From: a virus
Virus record (IMG/VR): IMGVR_UViG_3300045988_014547
Length of the DNA stretch: 38,085 nucleotides
Strand: one strand, 5' to 3'
In this document: positions 3,480 through 7,908 of the stretch, one piece after another
Layout of the letters: every line of letters starts with the position of its first letter
How positions within the stretch are numbered: the stretch's first letter is position 1
The notes under the pieces: model-generated
Databases searched by the model: none
Told to the model about the DNA's origin: nothing
Seen by the model: only the letters and a program-made list of their open reading frames with translations
Made by a program: the position numbers and the translations under genes

Positions 3480-3724
3480 TGCTTTTTCCTTTCCCCTGTG
3501 CTATAATCAGCACAGGAACATAAGATTTTGTTTGGATTCTTGTTGTTTCGCTGCCCTGCTCGGTGTGTCAGACCGGGCGGGGCTTTTTCTTTCTTTTCCT
3601 TGTTCGCCTGCCGGTACGCCGCATTGCAAGCCGCGATCTTTTCCTTGTTCGCCTGGCAGTACGCCGCCTGATAGGCCGCGAGCTTGCTGCGTCCCTCCCG
3701 TTTGATGCTTCTCTCGCGTTCCAT
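3476..3724 (-). CDS. Hypothetical protein with duplicated AAY.QANKEK motif
   Basis: 82-aa ORF. Contains a 30-nt direct repeat with a 45-nt period (3593-3622 and 3638-3667). The C-terminal third looks low-complexity, so the true extent is uncertain. Confidence 0.35.
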   Translation of the reverse strand: MERERSIKREGRSKLAAYQAAYCQANKEKIAACNAAYRQANKEKKEKAPPGLTHRAGQRNNKNPNKILCSCADYSTGERKKQ

Positions 3725-3736
3725 GCTGCCGCGCCA

Positions 3737-3832
3737 TTACTCCGGGCTCATGTCCTCCTCATCCAGAATGCAGTCCGGGTATGGGCAGTGAAAGCAGTCC
3801 CGGTCGCAGGTCGGTTTATTTGGCGTGTGCAT
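3737..3832 (-). CDS. Small Cys-rich protein (31 aa)
   Basis: ATG at 3832 preceded by AAAGGAGGA. Sequence MHTPNKPTCDRDCFHCPYPDCILDEEDMSPE. Shorter than the ORF-track entry, which begins at an upstream ATG with no RBS. Confidence 0.4.
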   Translation of the reverse strand: MHTPNKPTCDRDCFHCPYPDCILDEEDMSPE

Positions 3833-4031
3833 GTCGGTCCTCCTTTCGGCGTTGTAAAATTGCGTCAAGCGCTTTCTCCATTCGCTTCTGTACGCCCTCT
3901 GGCTTGCGCTTCCCGTTGAGAAGCATCGAAACATACGGCTTCGTTACGCCCATCTCTTTCGCGAGCTCGTCGAAGGTGACGCGCTCGTTGTGCATCTTAC
4001 CAACGAGCCTCCCCGTCCATTTTTCCGGCAT
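3816..4031 (-). CDS. Cro-like HTH regulator; first gene of the leftward early operon
   Basis: 71 aa. HTH segment TFDELAKEMGVTKPYVSMLLNGKR. RBS AAAGGAGG. Divergent from the XRE repressor gene. Confidence 0.7.
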   Translation of the reverse strand: MPEKWTGRLVGKMHNERVTFDELAKEMGVTKPYVSMLLNGKRKPEGVQKRMEKALDAILQRRKEDRHAHAK

Positions 4032-4058
4032 CGTTTTGCCTCCTTTGCGTTTAATATG

Positions 4059-4087
4059 TTGACTGCTGCCCTAAAATCTGATATTCT
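4059..4087 (+). promoter_or_regulatory. Sigma-A-type promoter firing rightward into the non-coding switch region
   Basis: TTGACT (4059-4064), 17-nt spacer, TATTCT (4082-4087). Confidence 0.5.
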
Positions 4088-4093
4088 GTCTGT

Positions 4094-4420
4094 AGCCCTA
4101 TGAGGCATTTTTAAGGGGGTGGTCGCATTGACCAAACTTTTGAACTTGCCAGTTCCAGACCAAAGAAACGGCGCGATGCGTTAGGGCAAGGAGCAGAACC
4201 GGAACTGCTAAAGTGAGCGGCACATAAAGAAACGTGCTACGAACACGTATCTTTGGGCGCTGCCTCAGAAGCACTTGAGGCAACGATGAATCGCGCCTCC
4301 CGAGGCAATGTGGAGGTTGCGTGAAATCGGGCGCTCACGGGTTGTAATGTGTTCTGGTAAACAAATTCCGGTGGAGCCGTCGTCCGTGTTCGCAGCACGG
4401 GCGGCGGTTTCAAATTTTTC
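4094..4420 (+). ncRNA. Candidate ~330-nt non-coding transcript, antisense to the leader of the early lytic transcript
   Basis: Bounded by the promoter at 4059-4087 and an intrinsic terminator at 4377-4420. No ORF with an RBS and protein-like composition on either strand. Several internal hairpins, e.g. 4261-4282. Confidence 0.4.
4377..4420 (+). terminator. Intrinsic terminator (plus strand)
   Basis: 12-bp stem ccgtcgtccgtg / cacgggcggcgg (two G-U pairs), loop ttcgcag, then tttcaaatttttc. Confidence 0.55.
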
Positions 4421-4442
4421 GGGCAGCAGTCGTTTTTTGCGG

Positions 4443-4471
4443 TTGCAAATGTTAACAATCCGTGCTATTAT
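4443..4471 (+). promoter_or_regulatory. Candidate repressor (lysogenic) promoter
   Basis: TTGCAA, 17-nt spacer, TATTAT. Located ~170 nt upstream of the XRE repressor ATG and facing the leftward consensus promoter. Confidence 0.5.
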
Positions 4472-4525
4472 GGTCTTGCAAGGAACGAAATAGCTTGACG
4501 CAGGACTTTTGTCTTGGGTCTTGGT

Positions 4526-4600
4526 TTTGTTATCGTTTGCAACTCGTGCTTTCATTATAGCGATAACAAACGCAACTGTCAAGAATAAAGTGATAACAAA
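4526..4600. promoter_or_regulatory. Three operator half-site copies ([C/T]GATAACAAA)
   Basis: TTTGTTATCG at 4526-4535 (inverted), CGATAACAAA at 4561-4570, TGATAACAAA at 4591-4600. They overlap the leftward promoter. Confidence 0.6.
4554..4582 (-). promoter_or_regulatory. Consensus early (lytic) promoter, leftward
   Basis: On the minus strand: TTGACA (4582-4577), 17-nt spacer, TATAAT (4559-4554). One operator copy lies inside the spacer. Confidence 0.65.
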
Positions 4601-4641
4601 TTAAACTTTTCCATATTGCACAAAACAGTGGTGTGTAAATT

Positions 4642-4980
4642 ATGAATTTTTACGAAAACTATGTAAGGCTATGTAATTCTGTTGGAAAGTCGCCGTCGGC
4701 GGTGGCGATTGAGCTTAAACTCGGCAAGCCGTCTGTCTCTCGTTGGAAAAGTGGATCGAATCCGAGAACAGCTACTTTGTTAAAGATTGCAGACTATTTC
4801 GGCGTAACCGTCGAATACCTCAAGGGCGAAGAAGCAAAAAAAGACCCCGCCGGAACCGGCGAGGTCGGGAGTTCAGACGCTCAGGAGATATTGAATTTCA
4901 TCCGCTCTGCTTCCGTAGAGGACTTGCGGGAGGTCAGTCGTTATATCGGTTATCTGAAAAGCAAGAGGGAAACAAAATGA
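4642..4980 (+). CDS. XRE-family CI-like repressor
   Basis: 112 aa. HTH_XRE signature (YVRLCNSVGKSPSAVAIELKLGKPSVSRWKSG..P....L.KIADYFGVTVEYL). Divergent from the cro-like gene. Confidence 0.85.
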   Translation: MNFYENYVRLCNSVGKSPSAVAIELKLGKPSVSRWKSGSNPRTATLLKIADYFGVTVEYLKGEEAKKDPAGTGEVGSSDAQEILNFIRSASVEDLREVSRYIGYLKSKRETK

Positions 4981-5363
4981 GCGTATCAAAGAAGGACAGG
5001 GACGCCGCTATGCGCATCATCCTCGAACATAACAGAGAAAATGTCCGCGGGCATATGATCGGCTCTGTTTACATCGACCGCCGAGGATTGCCGGACAGCG
5101 CAGCGGGGTGCGACGCTCTCGAGGTGCTCCGCTCAATGGGTTTTGTGGAATACGAAAAAGACAAGGACGGAGAAATTTACAATGTATACCCCACGGATAG
5201 CGGAATCCATTACTTTGAAGCGGAAGAGGATGCGAAGCAAGCACAGTCTGCGATATTCCGCCACGAATGGAAAATTGCCTTATTCTCCGCACTTGTCGGA
5301 GCGTTAGCGTCGGAACCTTTGTGGTATTGCATTAAGCTTCTCTGGCGATTGGTTCGTTCTTAA
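4977..5363 (+). CDS. Hypothetical protein with C-terminal TM helix, co-transcribed with the repressor
   Basis: ATG at 4977 overlaps the repressor stop (ATGA); RBS AAGAGGGA. Hydrophobic C-terminal segment (WKIALFSALVGALASEPLWYCIKLLW). Confidence 0.6.
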   Translation: MSVSKKDRDAAMRIILEHNRENVRGHMIGSVYIDRRGLPDSAAGCDALEVLRSMGFVEYEKDKDGEIYNVYPTDSGIHYFEAEEDAKQAQSAIFRHEWKIALFSALVGALASEPLWYCIKLLWRLVRS

Positions 5364-6370: not shown

Positions 6371-6778
6371 GTGTTTGTTACGACGGTTCAGGACATTATT
6401 TTTGGCATTATTACACAAAAAGAGGCGACCGGCATGACGAACCAGCAGATTGCGGATTCGGCGAAGGTATCAAAGACAACCGTTGACCGATTGCTGCGAA
6501 ACGACCCAGGAACCAGCCCAAATGCGCAGACGCTTATCGATGTAGCAAATGCAGTTGGGTATCAAATCGGAGGCACCGAACCGCACAGTGAGGTGCGGGA
6601 AATCTACGAGGAGCAAATCAAGCAAACGGAAGCGCATTACAACAGAATGCTTACACTGCAAAATCGGTGGCTGCGCTTTGCTGTTCTTCTCTGCCTGATT
6701 TTACTCGTCTTTGTCATAGCAATGCTTCTATTTGATGTGACGCACCCAGACACAGGCTGGATAACAGACAAGAGTTGA
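6371..6778 (+). CDS. Membrane-anchored HTH (XRE-like) regulator
   Basis: HTH segment MTNQQIADSAKVSKTTVDRLL, plus a C-terminal TM helix (FAVLLCLILLVFVIAMLLF). Start codon (GTG at 6371) is uncertain. Confidence 0.55.
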   Translation: MFVTTVQDIIFGIITQKEATGMTNQQIADSAKVSKTTVDRLLRNDPGTSPNAQTLIDVANAVGYQIGGTEPHSEVREIYEEQIKQTEAHYNRMLTLQNRWLRFAVLLCLILLVFVIAMLLFDVTHPDTGWITDKS

Positions 6779-6831
6779 TAGTGCGGGGGTATCAGCGAAA
6801 GCCGATATCCCTTTTTTGCAGGAGGGAAAAC

Positions 6832-7908
6832 ATGGGATGTATCAAATGCGGTCGAGACATTCCCGACGGGGCCATGTTCTGCCCGTGGTGCGGAAAAAAA
6901 CAGGTGCAAGAAAAGCGGAAGGCACTCAAACGGGCAAACGGGACAGGCACGGTTTACAAGCTGTCAGGCCGTCGCAGCCGTCCGTGGGTCGCGGCTAAAA
7001 ACAAGATGGTCATTGGGTATTACGCGAAGAAAACAGAGGCCATGGAAGCCATAGAGCGACTGGCTGGTAGATCAATCTCAGAGCGGTACAATATGACATT
7101 CGAAGAGGTATTTCAGGAATGGAAAGCGGAACACTTCCGGGAAATTGGAGAAAAGAGCATTGCCGCATATGAAAACGCTTACGCAAAAAGCAAGGAGCTC
7201 TATGGTAGGCAGTTTCGCTCCCTGCGCGTAAAGGACTTCCAGTCAATTATTGATAACAACAAAGCTGCCAAGTCACGCTCCGCACAAGCCAAATACAAGC
7301 ATCTGTTTGTGCAACTATCAGAGTGGGCCGTGCGCGAGGAGGCTGCTACGACAAACTACGCCAGATTTGTGAAGCTAGACGGTGAAAAGCCGAAAGAAAA
7401 AGCTGTGTTTACAGATTCAGATATCAAAAAAATGGAAGCAGCCGGAACACCCGCAGCAAAACTCACCCTCATGCTGATTTACACCGGGATGCGCATCGGC
7501 GAAATGTTTTCCCTGCCGCTTTCCGGATATCATGAAACCTATGTTATCGGCGGCGAAAAAACAGAAGCGGGCCGAAATCGAATCATACCGATCCGCCCAG
7601 AGGGGCGTGCCTACTTTGCAGAGATCGCAGCTAGAGCAGACGGTGATCTTCTGATTTCCGGGTATGACGGGCAAAAAGTAGCTGAAAACTTCCGGAAGCG
7701 AGATTATTACCCGATGTTGGAGCAGCTCGGTATTGAAAAAAAGCCACCGCACGCAACGCGTCACACCTTCGCAAGCTGGGCCGTCTCCGCCGGGATCAGA
7801 CCGGAAATGCTGCAGAAAATTCTTGGTCACTCAAACTATGATACAACAGCAGATATATACGTCCACGCAAATATTGATCAGCTTGTGGAAGCGGTAGAAG
7901 CGCACTGA
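6832..7908 (+). CDS. int: Tyrosine integrase with N-terminal zinc ribbon
   Basis: ATG at 6832 after AGGAGGG. Begins MGCIKCGRDIPDGAMFCPWCGKK. C-terminal catalytic signature HATRHTFAS...LGHSNYDTTADIYVH. Confidence 0.9.
   Translation: MGCIKCGRDIPDGAMFCPWCGKKQVQEKRKALKRANGTGTVYKLSGRRSRPWVAAKNKMVIGYYAKKTEAMEAIERLAGRSISERYNMTFEEVFQEWKAEHFREIGEKSIAAYENAYAKSKELYGRQFRSLRVKDFQSIIDNNKAAKSRSAQAKYKHLFVQLSEWAVREEAATTNYARFVKLDGEKPKEKAVFTDSDIKKMEAAGTPAAKLTLMLIYTGMRIGEMFSLPLSGYHETYVIGGEKTEAGRNRIIPIRPEGRAYFAEIAARADGDLLISGYDGQKVAENFRKRDYYPMLEQLGIEKKPPHATRHTFASWAVSAGIRPEMLQKILGHSNYDTTADIYVHANIDQLVEAVEAH

What the first reader, a model, noticed from the sequence alone, without database searches (positions are those of the whole stretch)
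4059..4431. Self-contained promoter-to-terminator unit (~330 nt, no ORF) antisense to a 515-nt lytic leader and bracketed by inverted repeats
The gap between the cro-like gene and the repressor gene is 610 bp, unusually long, and the lytic promoter sits ~515 nt from its first ORF. Inside this leader, on the opposite strand, are a good promoter (TTGACT, 17 nt, TATTCT; 4059-4087) and, ~290 nt downstream, a 12-bp GC-rich hairpin with a U-rich tail (4377-4420). No frame on either strand offers an RBS-preceded, protein-like ORF. The largest track ORFs here are Pro/Thr/Arg-rich with no RBS. Stable local hairpins are visible: TGCCTCA/TGAGGCA at 4261-4282, and CAGTTCC/GGAACTG at 4150-4156/4201-4207. 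The unit is flanked by a 16/17 inverted repeat, GACTGCTGCCC[T/G]AAAA, at 4061-4077 and (reverse complement) 4415-4431. This could be an antisense regulator of early lytic transcription, a structured phage ncRNA of unknown class, or a small inserted element.
Basis: partly seen in the sequence, partly recalled or inferred. Interest (0 to 1): 0.65.

Follow-up and report, generated by a model that had tools for sequence, protein, structure and literature searches.

The report
FuFi-1 RNA cassette in phage switch
The unit is a copy of FuFi-1, a catalogued structured phage RNA of unknown function, carried as a swappable promoter-to-terminator cassette between the cro-like and repressor genes of a temperate gut phage and transcribed against the early lytic transcript.

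Summary
The unit is not an unknown class. Window 4171-4410 (+) matches Rfam RF02986 (FuFi-1) over the full model at 79.9 bits, above the 59.6 gathering score. FuFi-1 was described in 2017 as a terminator-ended orphan RNA whose function is still unknown.

Comparison with about 98 related units from gut viral contigs adds five points:
- The fold has strong covariation. It includes a pseudoknot and a kissing loop between an internal hairpin and the terminator loop. The + strand is the functional one.
They lie in a conserved hairpin and recur in 94 of 98 units. Translation is unproven.
- The unit nearly always points away from a small cro-like gene. No strong leftward promoter lies inside it, so the early lytic leader must cross it in antisense.
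- The unit is an exchangeable cassette. Related phages have an empty slot, other small RNAs, or a 39-aa gene there.
- The flanking inverted repeat comes and goes with the cassette.

My best reading is a stable, autonomously transcribed accessory RNA that acts through its fold and also opposes early lytic transcription. Verdict: a new member of a known kind, of moderate interest.

The parts
4059..4087 (+). Promoter of the RNA unit: -35 TTGACT (4059-4064), 17-nt spacer, TG-extended -10 TGATATTCT (4079-4087). The predicted start is near 4094.
   Evidence: One search scored it 9/12 with a TG extension. A promoter at the same place scores 10/12 or better in 48 of 67 distinct related units (sequences).
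4061..4076 (.). Left arm of the flanking inverted repeat, GACTGCTGCCCTAAAA. It overlaps the -35 box and marks the left edge of the exchangeable cassette.
   Evidence: Both arms change together between lineages (GCTGCCC, GCGGCGGGG, GCGGCAGGG, GCGGTRGGA). Homology with phage Chenonceau breaks right after TTGACT.
4095..4106 (+). 5'-terminal hairpin, GCC-CUAUGA-GGC.
   Evidence: A hairpin sits at this place in all units, with varying stems and loops such as GCCC/GGGC and UGCC/GGCA. In the alignment fold, its 3' half (GGCA) alternatively pairs with UGCC of the short ORF.
4113..4184 (+). Shine-Dalgarno sequence AAGGGGGTGG (4113-4122) and 18-codon ORF from TTG 4128 to TAG 4184 (MTKLLNLPVPDQRNGAMR). 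Both lie inside a conserved hairpin in which the SD pairs with codons 4-5. The stop codon overlaps the 5' end of the Rfam match.
   Evidence: One search found an SD plus TTG/GTG/ATG ORF in 94 of 98 units, with a conserved N-terminus and a variable length of 12-36 aa. One search predicted the hairpin in 25 of 29 distinct sequences, mean z -3.8. Translation is not shown.
4171..4410 (+). Match to Rfam RF02986 (FuFi-1 RNA) over the full model, positions 1-175.
   Evidence: 79.9 bits against a gathering score of 59.6, E 6e-17.
4193..4208 (+). Conserved hairpin GCAG-AACCGGAA-CUGC. Its loop bases CCGGAA (4199-4204) pair with UUCCGG (4366-4371) to form a pseudoknot.
   Evidence: the loop dinucleotide and its 3' partner change together (GG/CC, AA/UU, AG/CU, CA/UG). 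The hairpin stem covaries.
4232..4248 (+). Hairpin P3, ACGUG-CUACGAA-CACGU. Its loop (4237-4243) is complementary to the terminator loop (4389-4395), giving a kissing loop with 6 of 7 pairs.
   Evidence: One search reported it as inverted repeat I5 (4233-4247 x 4385-4399). In 44 distinct cores the loop-loop helix is 94.6% paired and 5 of 7 pairs show double changes.
4254..4345 (+). Lineage-specific insertion where the consensus has a small GNRA hairpin. It holds hairpins 4261-4282 and 4293-4321.
   Evidence: One search shows an insertion of about 75 nt relative to the model. Searches show compensatory changes in L404 and L414. Other lineages carry unrelated insertions here (L108, L408, L016).
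4356..4371 (+). Most conserved single-stranded element, GGUAAACAAAUU, followed by CCGG, which belongs to the pseudoknot's 3' strand (UUCCGG, 4366-4371). UCUGG..AAC here may also pair with GUUCCAGA (4153-4160) of the short ORF.
   Evidence: invariant across 44 cores; the pair at columns 68/307 is G-C in 13 sequences and A-U in 2.
4372..4419 (+). Intrinsic terminator: stem-loop 4376-4407 (extendable to 4372-4412) and an interrupted U-tract 4408-4419. It is part of the RNA fold through the kissing loop.
   Evidence: 9 of the 10 counted terminator stem pairs show double changes.
4416..4431 (.). Right arm of the flanking inverted repeat, TTTTCGGGCAGCAGTC, at the right edge of the cassette.
   Evidence: Homology with L414, L401 and Chenonceau ends or resumes at this arm.
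4554..4582 (-). Early lytic (PR-like) promoter, TTGACA-17-TATAAT. Its transcript must cross the whole unit in antisense to reach the cro-like gene.
   Evidence: One search scored it 12/12. Operator-like 17-mers overlap it. The arrangement recurs in 49 of 67 related units.
4443..4471 (+). Repressor-side (PRM-like) promoter, TTGCAA-17-TATTAT, downstream of the unit's terminator. The repressor gene therefore has its own promoter.
   Evidence: One search scored it 9/12 with a TG extension. It overlaps the operator-like site 4442-4458.
3816..4031 (-). Cro-like HTH gene (71 aa), the first gene of the leftward early operon, which continues to RecT and a YqaJ exonuclease.
4642..4980 (+). XRE-type repressor-like gene (112 aa) heading the rightward lysogeny module, with the integrase at 6775-7908.

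Best explanation
Identity (shown). The unit is a gene for a FuFi-1 RNA (Rfam RF02986). It runs about 325 nt from its own sigma-70 promoter (4059-4087) to an intrinsic terminator (4372-4419).

Setting (shown). It sits as a self-contained, exchangeable cassette in the cro/repressor intergenic region of a temperate phage related to Flavonifractor phage Chenonceau. It points in the lysogeny direction.

Fold (shown by comparison). The RNA is compact. It has a 5' hairpin holding an SD and a short ORF, a conserved hairpin whose loop forms a pseudoknot with the GGUAAACAAAUU-CCGG element, and a kissing loop that ties an internal hairpin to the terminator loop. The terminated transcript is therefore the functional molecule.

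Mechanism (inferred). It is an accessory, moron-like RNA made independently of the early lytic operon. It accumulates as a very stable RNA, with a locked 3' end and a ribosome-binding 5' end. It acts through its conserved fold on a partner that is the same in many hosts or phages.

Secondary effect (inferred). Because of where it sits, its transcription collides with the early lytic promoter, and the RNA is fully complementary to the 516-nt cro leader. It should therefore also dampen early lytic expression. I put about 0.95 on the identity, 0.8 on the cassette nature, and about 0.4 on fold-mediated action in trans as the main mechanism.
For: Identity:
- Searches give 79.9 bits against 59.6 over the full model.
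- The family is described as terminator-ended, rarely in 5' UTRs and not self-cleaving (PMC5737381).

Fold:
- On 44 distinct cores, 95.8% of cells are paired and 31 of 45 pairs show double changes. None of 500 shuffles reached this, and slid controls gave 35-47%.
- The pseudoknot covaries, and the kissing loop is 94.6% paired.
- G-U pairs are frequent on the + strand, and the + strand folds better (z -5.2 against -2.7).

Autonomy:
- The promoter is conserved and the terminator is conserved.

Cassette:
- Chenonceau has the same cro gene, repressor gene and operators, but the slot holds a promoter, a 39-aa ORF and a terminator.
- L436 is empty. L434 has the same inverted repeat with a different small RNA. 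L416 has a divergent FuFi-1.

Context:
- 80 of 82 units are divergent from a small ORF with an RBS. In a Pfam scan of 22 representative distinct ORF types, 9 matched HTH_3 and 2 HTH_17.
- No leftward promoter of 10/12 or better lies inside any of 67 units, and 49 of 67 have one within 600 nt to the right.
Against: - No expression data exist for either strand. The promoters and the terminator are predictions.
- No partner of the RNA is known, and the literature held here gives no function.
- Empty slots show that the switch works without the unit, so any effect on the switch is modulatory.
- The SD and short ORF could mean a peptide or a translation-coupled mechanism that this model does not need.
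- The flanking inverted repeat is not explained by the model.
Confidence: 0.55

Rival explanations
1. Pure cis-antisense or transcriptional-interference regulator. The unit exists to fire against the early lytic promoter and to pair with the cro leader, in the manner of lambda OOP or P22 sar. The fold would serve only for RNA stability and fast kissing with the complementary leader hairpins.
For: - Position and orientation are conserved: 80 of 82 units are divergent from the first early gene.
- The leader must cross the unit.
- Other cargos in the same slot keep the same promoter-to-terminator design and orientation.
- The antisense of hairpin P3 plus a U-rich run forms a terminator-like site for leftward transcription at 4248..4232.
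Against: - An antisense RNA needs no sequence shared between phages. Yet loops and junctions (GAACC, AAG, GGUAAACAAAUU) are invariant in phages with unrelated cro genes and leaders.
- The intramolecular pseudoknot and kissing loop covary.
- Empty slots exist.
Confidence: 0.15
2. Cis-acting leader or attenuator for the repressor gene, comparable to an establishment promoter. Translation of the short ORF or a ligand would decide whether the terminator is read through into the repressor gene.
For: - An SD plus short ORF rich in Leu and Pro codons sits at the 5' end.
- The unit lies upstream of a co-oriented repressor-like gene in the window and in 40 of 85 related units.
- The window's U-tract is interrupted.
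Against: - In 30 of 85 units the next gene is convergent, so there is nothing to read into.
- The terminator stem is complete on its own, and its loop is part of the fold.
- A separate promoter precedes the repressor gene.
- The position of the ORF's stop codon is not conserved.
- The original description notes that the motif is rarely in 5' UTRs.
Confidence: 0.07
3. The short ORF product is the effector, either a micropeptide or a type I toxin-like peptide. The structured RNA would then be its regulated mRNA.
For: - The SD is strong and the start codon varies only among TTG, GTG and ATG, never CTG.
- Where TTG has become TTA, an in-frame ATG sits one codon upstream.
- The SD is sequestered in a hairpin, as in type I toxin mRNAs.
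Against: - Only the first 10 or so codons are conserved, and these are the bases that pair in the hairpin.
- Length (12-36 aa) and C-terminus vary freely.
- The divergent FuFi-1 in L416 has an unrelated peptide.
- There is no transmembrane-like segment and no family match.
- The strongly conserved part of the unit is the RNA downstream.
Confidence: 0.05
4. The essence is a mobile or invertible DNA element. The 16-bp inverted repeats would be terminal repeats of a MITE-like element, or sites for a DNA invertase that flips the unit.
For: - The inverted repeats flank the unit exactly at the edges of homology with relatives.
- The repeats are absent from the empty site and present around a different cargo.
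- Both arms change together between lineages.
- Unrelated flanking inverted repeats occur in L208 and L328.
Against: - No target-site duplication is visible at filled versus empty sites.
- The phage holds only one copy.
- Orientation is fixed in 80 of 82 loci, so there is no sign of inversion.
- About 27 of 62 distinct units have no flanking inverted repeat.
- No transposase or invertase is associated with the unit.
Confidence: 0.08

Closest known systems
FuFi-1 RNA motif (Rfam RF02986; Weinberg et al. 2017, PMC5737381)
   Same: The window matches the full model above the gathering score. It shares the hairpin with the GAACC..AAC loop, the multistem junction, the GGUAAACAAAUU element and the 3' intrinsic terminator. 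It is not in a 5' UTR.
   Different: - The window copy scores low for the family (79.9 bits against 120-147 in typical copies).
- It carries an insertion of about 90 nt (4254-4345) in place of a small GNRA hairpin.
- It lacks the extra 5' domain of about 170 nt seen in most gut-phage copies.
- The Rfam model starts downstream of the 5' hairpin and the SD, and overlaps only the last codons of the short ORF, all of which belong to the transcript.
- I could not check whether the published consensus already shows the pseudoknot and kissing loop, because figures and supplements are not held.
Phage cis-antisense RNAs in or near the genetic switch (lambda OOP, P22 sar); from general knowledge, not tested here
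   Same: It is a short, terminator-ended transcript made convergently to an early lytic transcript and fully complementary to it.
   Different: Those RNAs are short simple hairpins whose sequence is dictated by the target. This RNA is about 325 nt, with a conserved tertiary fold and sequence shared by phages with unrelated targets.
Morons of lambdoid phages (promoter-gene-terminator units inserted between core genes); from general knowledge
   Same: It has its own promoter and terminator, varies in presence among close relatives, allows alternative cargos in one slot, and is placed in the lysogeny-expressed region.
   Different: The cargo is an RNA rather than a protein. The slot lies inside the leader of the early lytic operon. 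In one large phage clade the cassette is bounded by inverted repeats.
prgQ/Qs RNA and Anti-Q of Enterococcus plasmid pCF10; from general knowledge
   Same: A short ORF lies at the 5' end of a structured RNA that ends at a terminator, within a pair of convergent, overlapping transcription units controlled by HTH regulators.
   Different: There is no sequence relation. In pCF10 the conserved, functional part of the peptide is its C-terminus and the peptide is exported. Here only the N-terminal codons are conserved, and they pair in a hairpin.
Phage-associated ornate RNAs that assemble through loop-loop contacts (phi29 pRNA; ROOL and GOLLD); from general knowledge
   Same: It is phage-borne, protein-independent by context, and highly structured. 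It has a long (7-9 bp), strongly covarying loop-loop complementarity.
   Different: I read the FuFi-1 loop-loop pairing as intramolecular, but sequence alone cannot distinguish that from intermolecular pairing. FuFi-1 is much smaller than ROOL or GOLLD and is not near packaging genes.

Membership tests
FuFi-1 RNA (Rfam RF02986) | Covariance-model score at or above the curated gathering score over the full model | tested here: met
   79.9 bits against 59.6, model positions 1-175, E 6e-17.
FuFi-1 RNA (Rfam RF02986) | Hairpin with the conserved GAACC..AAC loop, followed by AAG | tested here: met
   GCAGAACCGGAACUGC-UAAAG at 4193-4213. The stem covaries across 44 cores.
FuFi-1 RNA (Rfam RF02986) | Conserved junction and 3' elements (AUAGAAG, UGCAA, GGUAAACAAAUUUGG) | tested here: met
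   The window has AUAAAGAA, UGUAA and GGUAAACAAAUUCCGG. The last differs only where the pseudoknot partner has changed in step.
FuFi-1 RNA (Rfam RF02986) | Rho-independent terminator as the 3' end of the motif | tested here: met
   4372-4412 plus a T-run, aligned to the model's terminal hairpin.
FuFi-1 RNA (Rfam RF02986) | First helix (P1) of the model | tested here: inconclusive
   The model's P1 aligns with non-canonical pairs in the window. In the window's lineage GUGAGCG (4214-4220) can instead pair with CGCUCAC (4332-4338), a pairing seen in the minimum-free-energy fold (coordinates). I did not resolve which applies.
FuFi-1 RNA (Rfam RF02986) | Occurrence in Firmicutes or Fusobacteria and their phages | tested here: met
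   The closest annotated relative of the flanking genes is Flavonifractor phage Chenonceau. All related units come from viral contigs of about 40 kb.
Cis-antisense RNA regulator of a phage switch | Convergent transcription that overlaps the target transcript | tested here: met
   This rests on predicted promoters only: + 4059-4087 against - 4582..4554, with none in between. The arrangement is general in 49 of 67 units.
Cis-antisense RNA regulator of a phage switch | Measurable effect on target RNA level or translation | not testable with these tools
   Needs RNA and genetic experiments.
Moron-like accessory cassette | Own promoter and terminator, with presence/absence and cargo variation between close relatives | tested here: met
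   empty L436 and L432, alternative cargos in L434, L428 and Chenonceau.
Moron-like accessory cassette | Expression from the repressed prophage | not testable with these tools
   No transcript data. An operator-like partial site abuts the -35 box (repeats I8 and I9), so control by the repressor is possible.
MITE-like or invertible element | Terminal inverted repeats | tested here: met
   15 of 16 in the window, and 16-18 of 18 in relatives.
MITE-like or invertible element | Target-site duplication, multiple copies, or both orientations seen | tested here: not met
   No duplication at filled versus empty sites, a single copy in the window, and one orientation in 80 of 82 loci.
Type I toxin or leader-peptide gene | Peptide conserved along its length, with a conserved stop position | tested here: not met
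   Length is 12-36 aa, only about 10 N-terminal codons are conserved, and L416 has an unrelated peptide.

The most novel reading that the evidence does not exclude
FuFi-1 would be one cargo of an undescribed kind of inverted-repeat-bounded promoter-to-terminator cassette that inserts into the early-leader region of temperate Clostridia phages. In the leftward lytic transcript the two repeat arms would pair, so the inserted antisense cargo is looped out or cut away. The RNA itself would engage the ribosome through its near-perfect SD and short ORF. Alternatively, it would multimerise through its 7-9 bp loop-loop complementarity, as phi29 pRNA or ROOL does, and act as a prophage-encoded defence or host-modulating particle.
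Probability: 0.15. Interest if true: 0.75.

Novelty: new member of a known kind. Interest (0 to 1): 0.45.

Why it matters
FuFi-1 was singled out in 2017 as one of a few orphan bacterial RNAs whose conservation suggests a demanding biochemical job. The paper library held here contains no later report of a function.

This locus and its relatives place the RNA in a defined and genetically tractable setting. That setting is the lysis-lysogeny switch of temperate phages of cultivable gut Clostridia, and natural controls exist:
- the same phage backbone with an empty slot;
- the same backbone with a different cargo;
- the same backbone with divergent FuFi-1 versions.

The comparison also extends the transcript beyond the catalogued model, adding a 5' hairpin, an SD and a short ORF. 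It identifies tertiary contacts that can be tested by compensatory mutation. If the RNA proves to affect lysogeny, superinfection or the host, it would give a function to a long-standing orphan class.

Tried and rejected
- **Other Rfam families.** A permissive scan of 3500-5200 gave only chance-level hits besides FuFi-1. Gathering-threshold scans found nothing for the extra 5' domain of typical units or for the alternative slot cargos.
- **Genome collection scan.** I scanned with the 15-mer GGTAAACAAATTTGG. Only L261 and L328 were real. I therefore have no taxonomic survey and no Fusobacteria copies.
- **First viral scan.** GCAGAACCNNAACTGC was also unspecific: 12 of 121 loci were real.
- **Invertible segment.** Rejected, because orientation is fixed in 80 of 82 loci.
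- **Transposon-like insertion.** No target duplication and no second copy.
- **Right repeat arm as a leftward promoter.** By eye there is a -35-like TTGACT but no -10 box (sequences). Rejected.
- **Strand test on the flanking repeat.** I counted G-U-compatible mismatches by hand on the output. In the GACTGC clade, 11 fit the leftward RNA and 2 fit the rightward RNA. L208 shows the reverse (1 against 4), and the events are not independent. Suggestive only.
- **Trans target of the conserved 3' element.** No complementary site elsewhere in the window.
- **PHROGs search.** No meaningful hit for the short peptides or for Chenonceau's 39-aa alternative cargo (one search failed on length).
- **Naive nearest-ORF calling.** It picked spurious ORFs on the wrong strand in this GC-rich DNA. 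I replaced it with RBS-anchored calling.
- **RNAalifold on the mixed short-class alignment.** It could not resolve the non-homologous insertion region.
Full report
**What is at the coordinates.** The window carries a classical temperate-phage switch.
- A 71-aa HTH gene (3816-4031, -) heads a leftward operon that continues to a YqaJ exonuclease and RecT.
- A 112-aa XRE-type gene (4642-4980, +) heads a rightward module that reaches a tyrosine integrase at 6775-7908.
- The gap between the two genes is 610 bp.
- The promoter and terminator scan found four elements:
  - a perfect leftward promoter at 4582..4554;
  - a rightward promoter at 4059-4087 (TTGACT-17-TATTCT, TG-extended);
  - a second rightward promoter at 4443-4471;
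  - a strong + strand terminator at 4372-4412.
- No other leftward promoter lies between 4554 and the cro start, so the early lytic leader is about 516 nt.
- The 16-nt inverted repeat 4061-4076 / 4416-4431 matches 15 of 16. It is longer than any inverted repeat found in 200 shuffles of the gap.
- The + strand of 4094-4420 folds to -134.8 kcal/mol (z -5.2). The - strand gives -104.5 kcal/mol (z -2.7).

**Identity.** An Rfam scan places window 4171-4410 (+) in family RF02986, FuFi-1 RNA. It scores 79.9 bits against a gathering score of 59.6, E 6e-17, over the whole model. An insertion of about 75 nt sits in one hairpin.

FuFi-1 was described by Weinberg et al. 2017 (PMC5737381). [quoted passage not shown] The authors found it rarely in 5' UTRs and saw no self-cleavage. 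Full-text searches of the held library found no later work on it. This is a known class whose function is unknown.

**Relatives.** DNA-pattern scans of the viral contig collection returned about 98 FuFi-1 units, mostly on contigs of about 40 kb from one large metagenome dataset (IMG/VR taxon 3300045988). Rfam confirmed every tested example at 80-147 bits.

Close relatives of the window's unit are L404, L410 and L414. They show double changes that keep the window-specific hairpins paired.

**Structure.** I analysed 44 distinct standard cores.
- 95.8% of cells form standard pairs.
- 31 of 45 pairs show changes on both sides.
- None of 500 shuffles reached these values, and sliding the partners by 1-3 columns dropped pairing to 35-47%.

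Two tertiary contacts stand out.
- **Pseudoknot.** The loop of the conserved hairpin (window CCGGAA, 4199-4204) pairs with the bases after GGUAAACAAAUU (UUCCGG, 4366-4371). Across lineages the variable dinucleotides change together: GG/CC, AA/UU, AG/CU and CA/UG.
- **Kissing loop.** The loop of hairpin P3 is complementary to the loop of the terminator hairpin over 7-9 nt.
  - The contact is 94.6% paired, and 5 of 7 pairs show double changes.
  - In the window this is CUACGAA (4237-4243) against UUCGCAG (4389-4395). The repeat finder had reported it as an inverted repeat (I5).

The terminator is thus part of the fold, so the terminated RNA is the functional product. Frequent G-U pairs in the + orientation, which would be A-C mismatches on the other strand, fix the functional strand.

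**A missed 5' module.** Upstream of the Rfam match, 94 of 98 units carry a strong Shine-Dalgarno sequence (typically AAAGGAGGTG). It lies 6-9 nt before a TTG, GTG or ATG codon that opens a short ORF. The ORF begins M-T-[KNQE]-L-L-x-L-P-[VA]-P, and its length and C-terminus vary from 12 to 36 aa.

In the window the SD is AAGGGGGTGG (4113-4122). The ORF runs from TTG 4128 to TAG 4184 and encodes MTKLLNLPVPDQRNGAMR. Its stop codon overlaps the start of the Rfam match.

The same bases form a hairpin in which three pairings occur:
- GGCA pairs with UGCC (the Leu-Pro codons);
- the A-rich part of the SD pairs with CUUUUG (the Leu-Leu codons);
- GGUC pairs with GACC.

This hairpin was predicted in 25 of 29 distinct sequences, mean z -3.8. 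The divergent FuFi-1 of L416 keeps an SD, an ATG and this pairing but encodes an unrelated peptide.

The nucleotide conservation is therefore largely structural. The constant SD and the constant start codon still point to ribosome binding. That binding could serve translation, or it could act as a 5' stabiliser of the kind known from Bacillus mRNAs (general knowledge). Translation is unproven.

It competes with the conserved hairpin and pseudoknot, and it is broken in relatives.

**Genomic setting.**
- In 80 of 82 units with enough flank, a small ORF with an RBS starts 84-300 nt to the left on the opposite strand. In a Pfam scan of 22 representative distinct ORF types, 9 matched HTH_3 (Cro/CI-type) and 2 matched HTH_17.
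- Of 85 units with enough downstream flank, 40 have a co-oriented gene, mostly repressor-like XRE (one 206-aa gene looks LexA/CI-like by eye), as in the window. Another 30 have a convergent gene, mostly small HTH genes ending right after the terminator. In 15, no gene was called.
- None of 67 distinct units has a leftward promoter of 10/12 or better inside it. 49 of 67 have one within 600 nt to the right.

**An exchangeable cassette.**
- Flavonifractor phage Chenonceau (ON453904) shares the cro-like gene, the repressor gene and the operator region with the window at about 70% identity. Between TTGACT and AGTCA it carries a promoter, a 39-aa ORF and a terminator instead of FuFi-1.
- Among 54 loci found through the repressor protein, only two of the 20 scanned have FuFi-1.
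- Sequence comparison of the slots shows:
  - an empty slot in L436;
  - in L434, which has the same flanks as L436, the same inverted repeat (TTGACTGCGGCAGA...TCTGCCGCAGTCAA) around an unrelated RNA unit of about 150 nt;
  - a similar repeat around a divergent FuFi-1 in L416;
  - another SD, short ORF, RNA and terminator cargo in L428, with the RNA part missing in L429.
- The repeat arms are absent from the empty site.
- The arms lie exactly at the edges of homology.
- The arms change together between lineages.
- Unrelated flanking repeats occur in L208 and L328. About 27 of 62 distinct units have none.
- I found no target duplication, no second copy in the window, and no inverted orientation.

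The unit is best described as a moron-like cassette. What the repeat does is open. Possibilities are a stem in the leftward leader RNA that loops out the cargo, a trace of how cassettes are exchanged, or protein sites.

**How it most likely works.**

Shown:
- the identity, the fold and the functional strand;
- the autonomy of the unit, from conserved promoter and terminator predictions;
- the position and orientation;
- the cassette nature.

Inferred:
- The RNA is made independently of the lytic operon, in the lysogeny direction.
- It is built for stability.
- It acts through its conserved fold on a partner common to many hosts or phages. Sequence in loops and junctions is invariant in phages whose switch genes are unrelated, and an antisense role alone would not require that.
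- Its placement makes promoter collision and full complementarity with the cro leader unavoidable, so a damping effect on early lytic expression is likely as a secondary role or a role of the slot itself.
- Empty slots show it is not a core switch component.

Rivals are a pure antisense regulator, a read-through leader for the repressor, a peptide effector, and a mobile or invertible element. Each is weighed in its own section and none fits all the data.

**Novelty and interest.** The element is a new, somewhat atypical member of a known orphan family, so the headline claim of an unknown class falls. Several results may go beyond the published description:
- the consistent switch-region context;
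- the 5' ribosome-binding module;
- the terminator kissing loop;
- the cassette polymorphism.

I could not check the paper's figures or supplements. These results make the function of FuFi-1 experimentally approachable. I rate the interest as moderate.

Noticed in passing
window 3480-3590 (+): A second small promoter-to-terminator unit lies inside the leftward early operon. It has TTGCTT-17-TATAAT with a TG extension, and the -10 box sits inside an 8-bp palindrome (CCTGTGCT..AGCACAGG, about 3492-3513). A + strand terminator follows at 3553-3583. The same design recurs next to the cro-like gene in 26 related loci (16 distinct). It has no Rfam match and may be another small antisense RNA.
   Followed up: partly
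window 4248..4232 (-): A terminator-like site for leftward transcription lies inside the unit. It is the antisense of hairpin P3 followed by UUCUUUAUGU. It could attenuate the early lytic leader.
   Followed up: no
window 4442-4458, 4527-4543, 4560-4576, 4589-4605; partial copy 4044-4060: Four operator-like 17-mers (GTTGCAAAYGWTAACAA and GYGATAACAAAYKMAAC types) overlap the PRM-like and PR-like promoters. A partial copy abuts the -35 box of the FuFi-1 promoter, so the repressor might also control the RNA promoter.
   Followed up: partly
L115 3760-3980, and most 'long-class' units (alignment A3): Most gut-phage FuFi-1 units have an extra conserved domain of about 170 nt between the short ORF and the Rfam model's start. 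It is closed by a covarying helix (A3 columns 75-82 with 248-255). No Rfam family covers it, and it is absent from the window's unit.
   Followed up: partly
L434 about 1990-2200; L428/L429 upstream of 2501: The same cro/repressor slot holds other unannotated promoter-to-terminator RNA cargos. L434 has an RNA of about 150 nt inside the same inverted repeat. L428 has an SD, a short ORF (MESLFGSF...), an RNA and a terminator, and its RNA part is deleted in L429. None matches Rfam.
   Followed up: partly
L417-L427, between the cro-like gene and the operator region: Here the slot holds only a 10-bp GC-rich palindrome, GCCGCAGGCG-N19-CGCCTGCGGC. Its halves resemble the cassette's repeat arms in swapped order. 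I have no explanation.
   Followed up: no
L163 10560-10630; L168 2776-2829: FuFi-1-bearing phages also carry other orphan Rfam RNAs: skipping-rope (58.8 bits) in L163 and RAGATH-31 (75.9 bits) in L168.
   Followed up: no
window 29320-29394 (-): A tRNA-Gly (anticodon TCC) gene lies in the late part of the window.
   Followed up: no
L208, flanks of the FuFi-1 unit: A 34-nt inverted repeat with five transition mismatches flanks the unit. Its right arm lies inside the 3' end of the convergent HTH gene. This looks like a trace of the rearrangement that placed the unit there.
   Followed up: no
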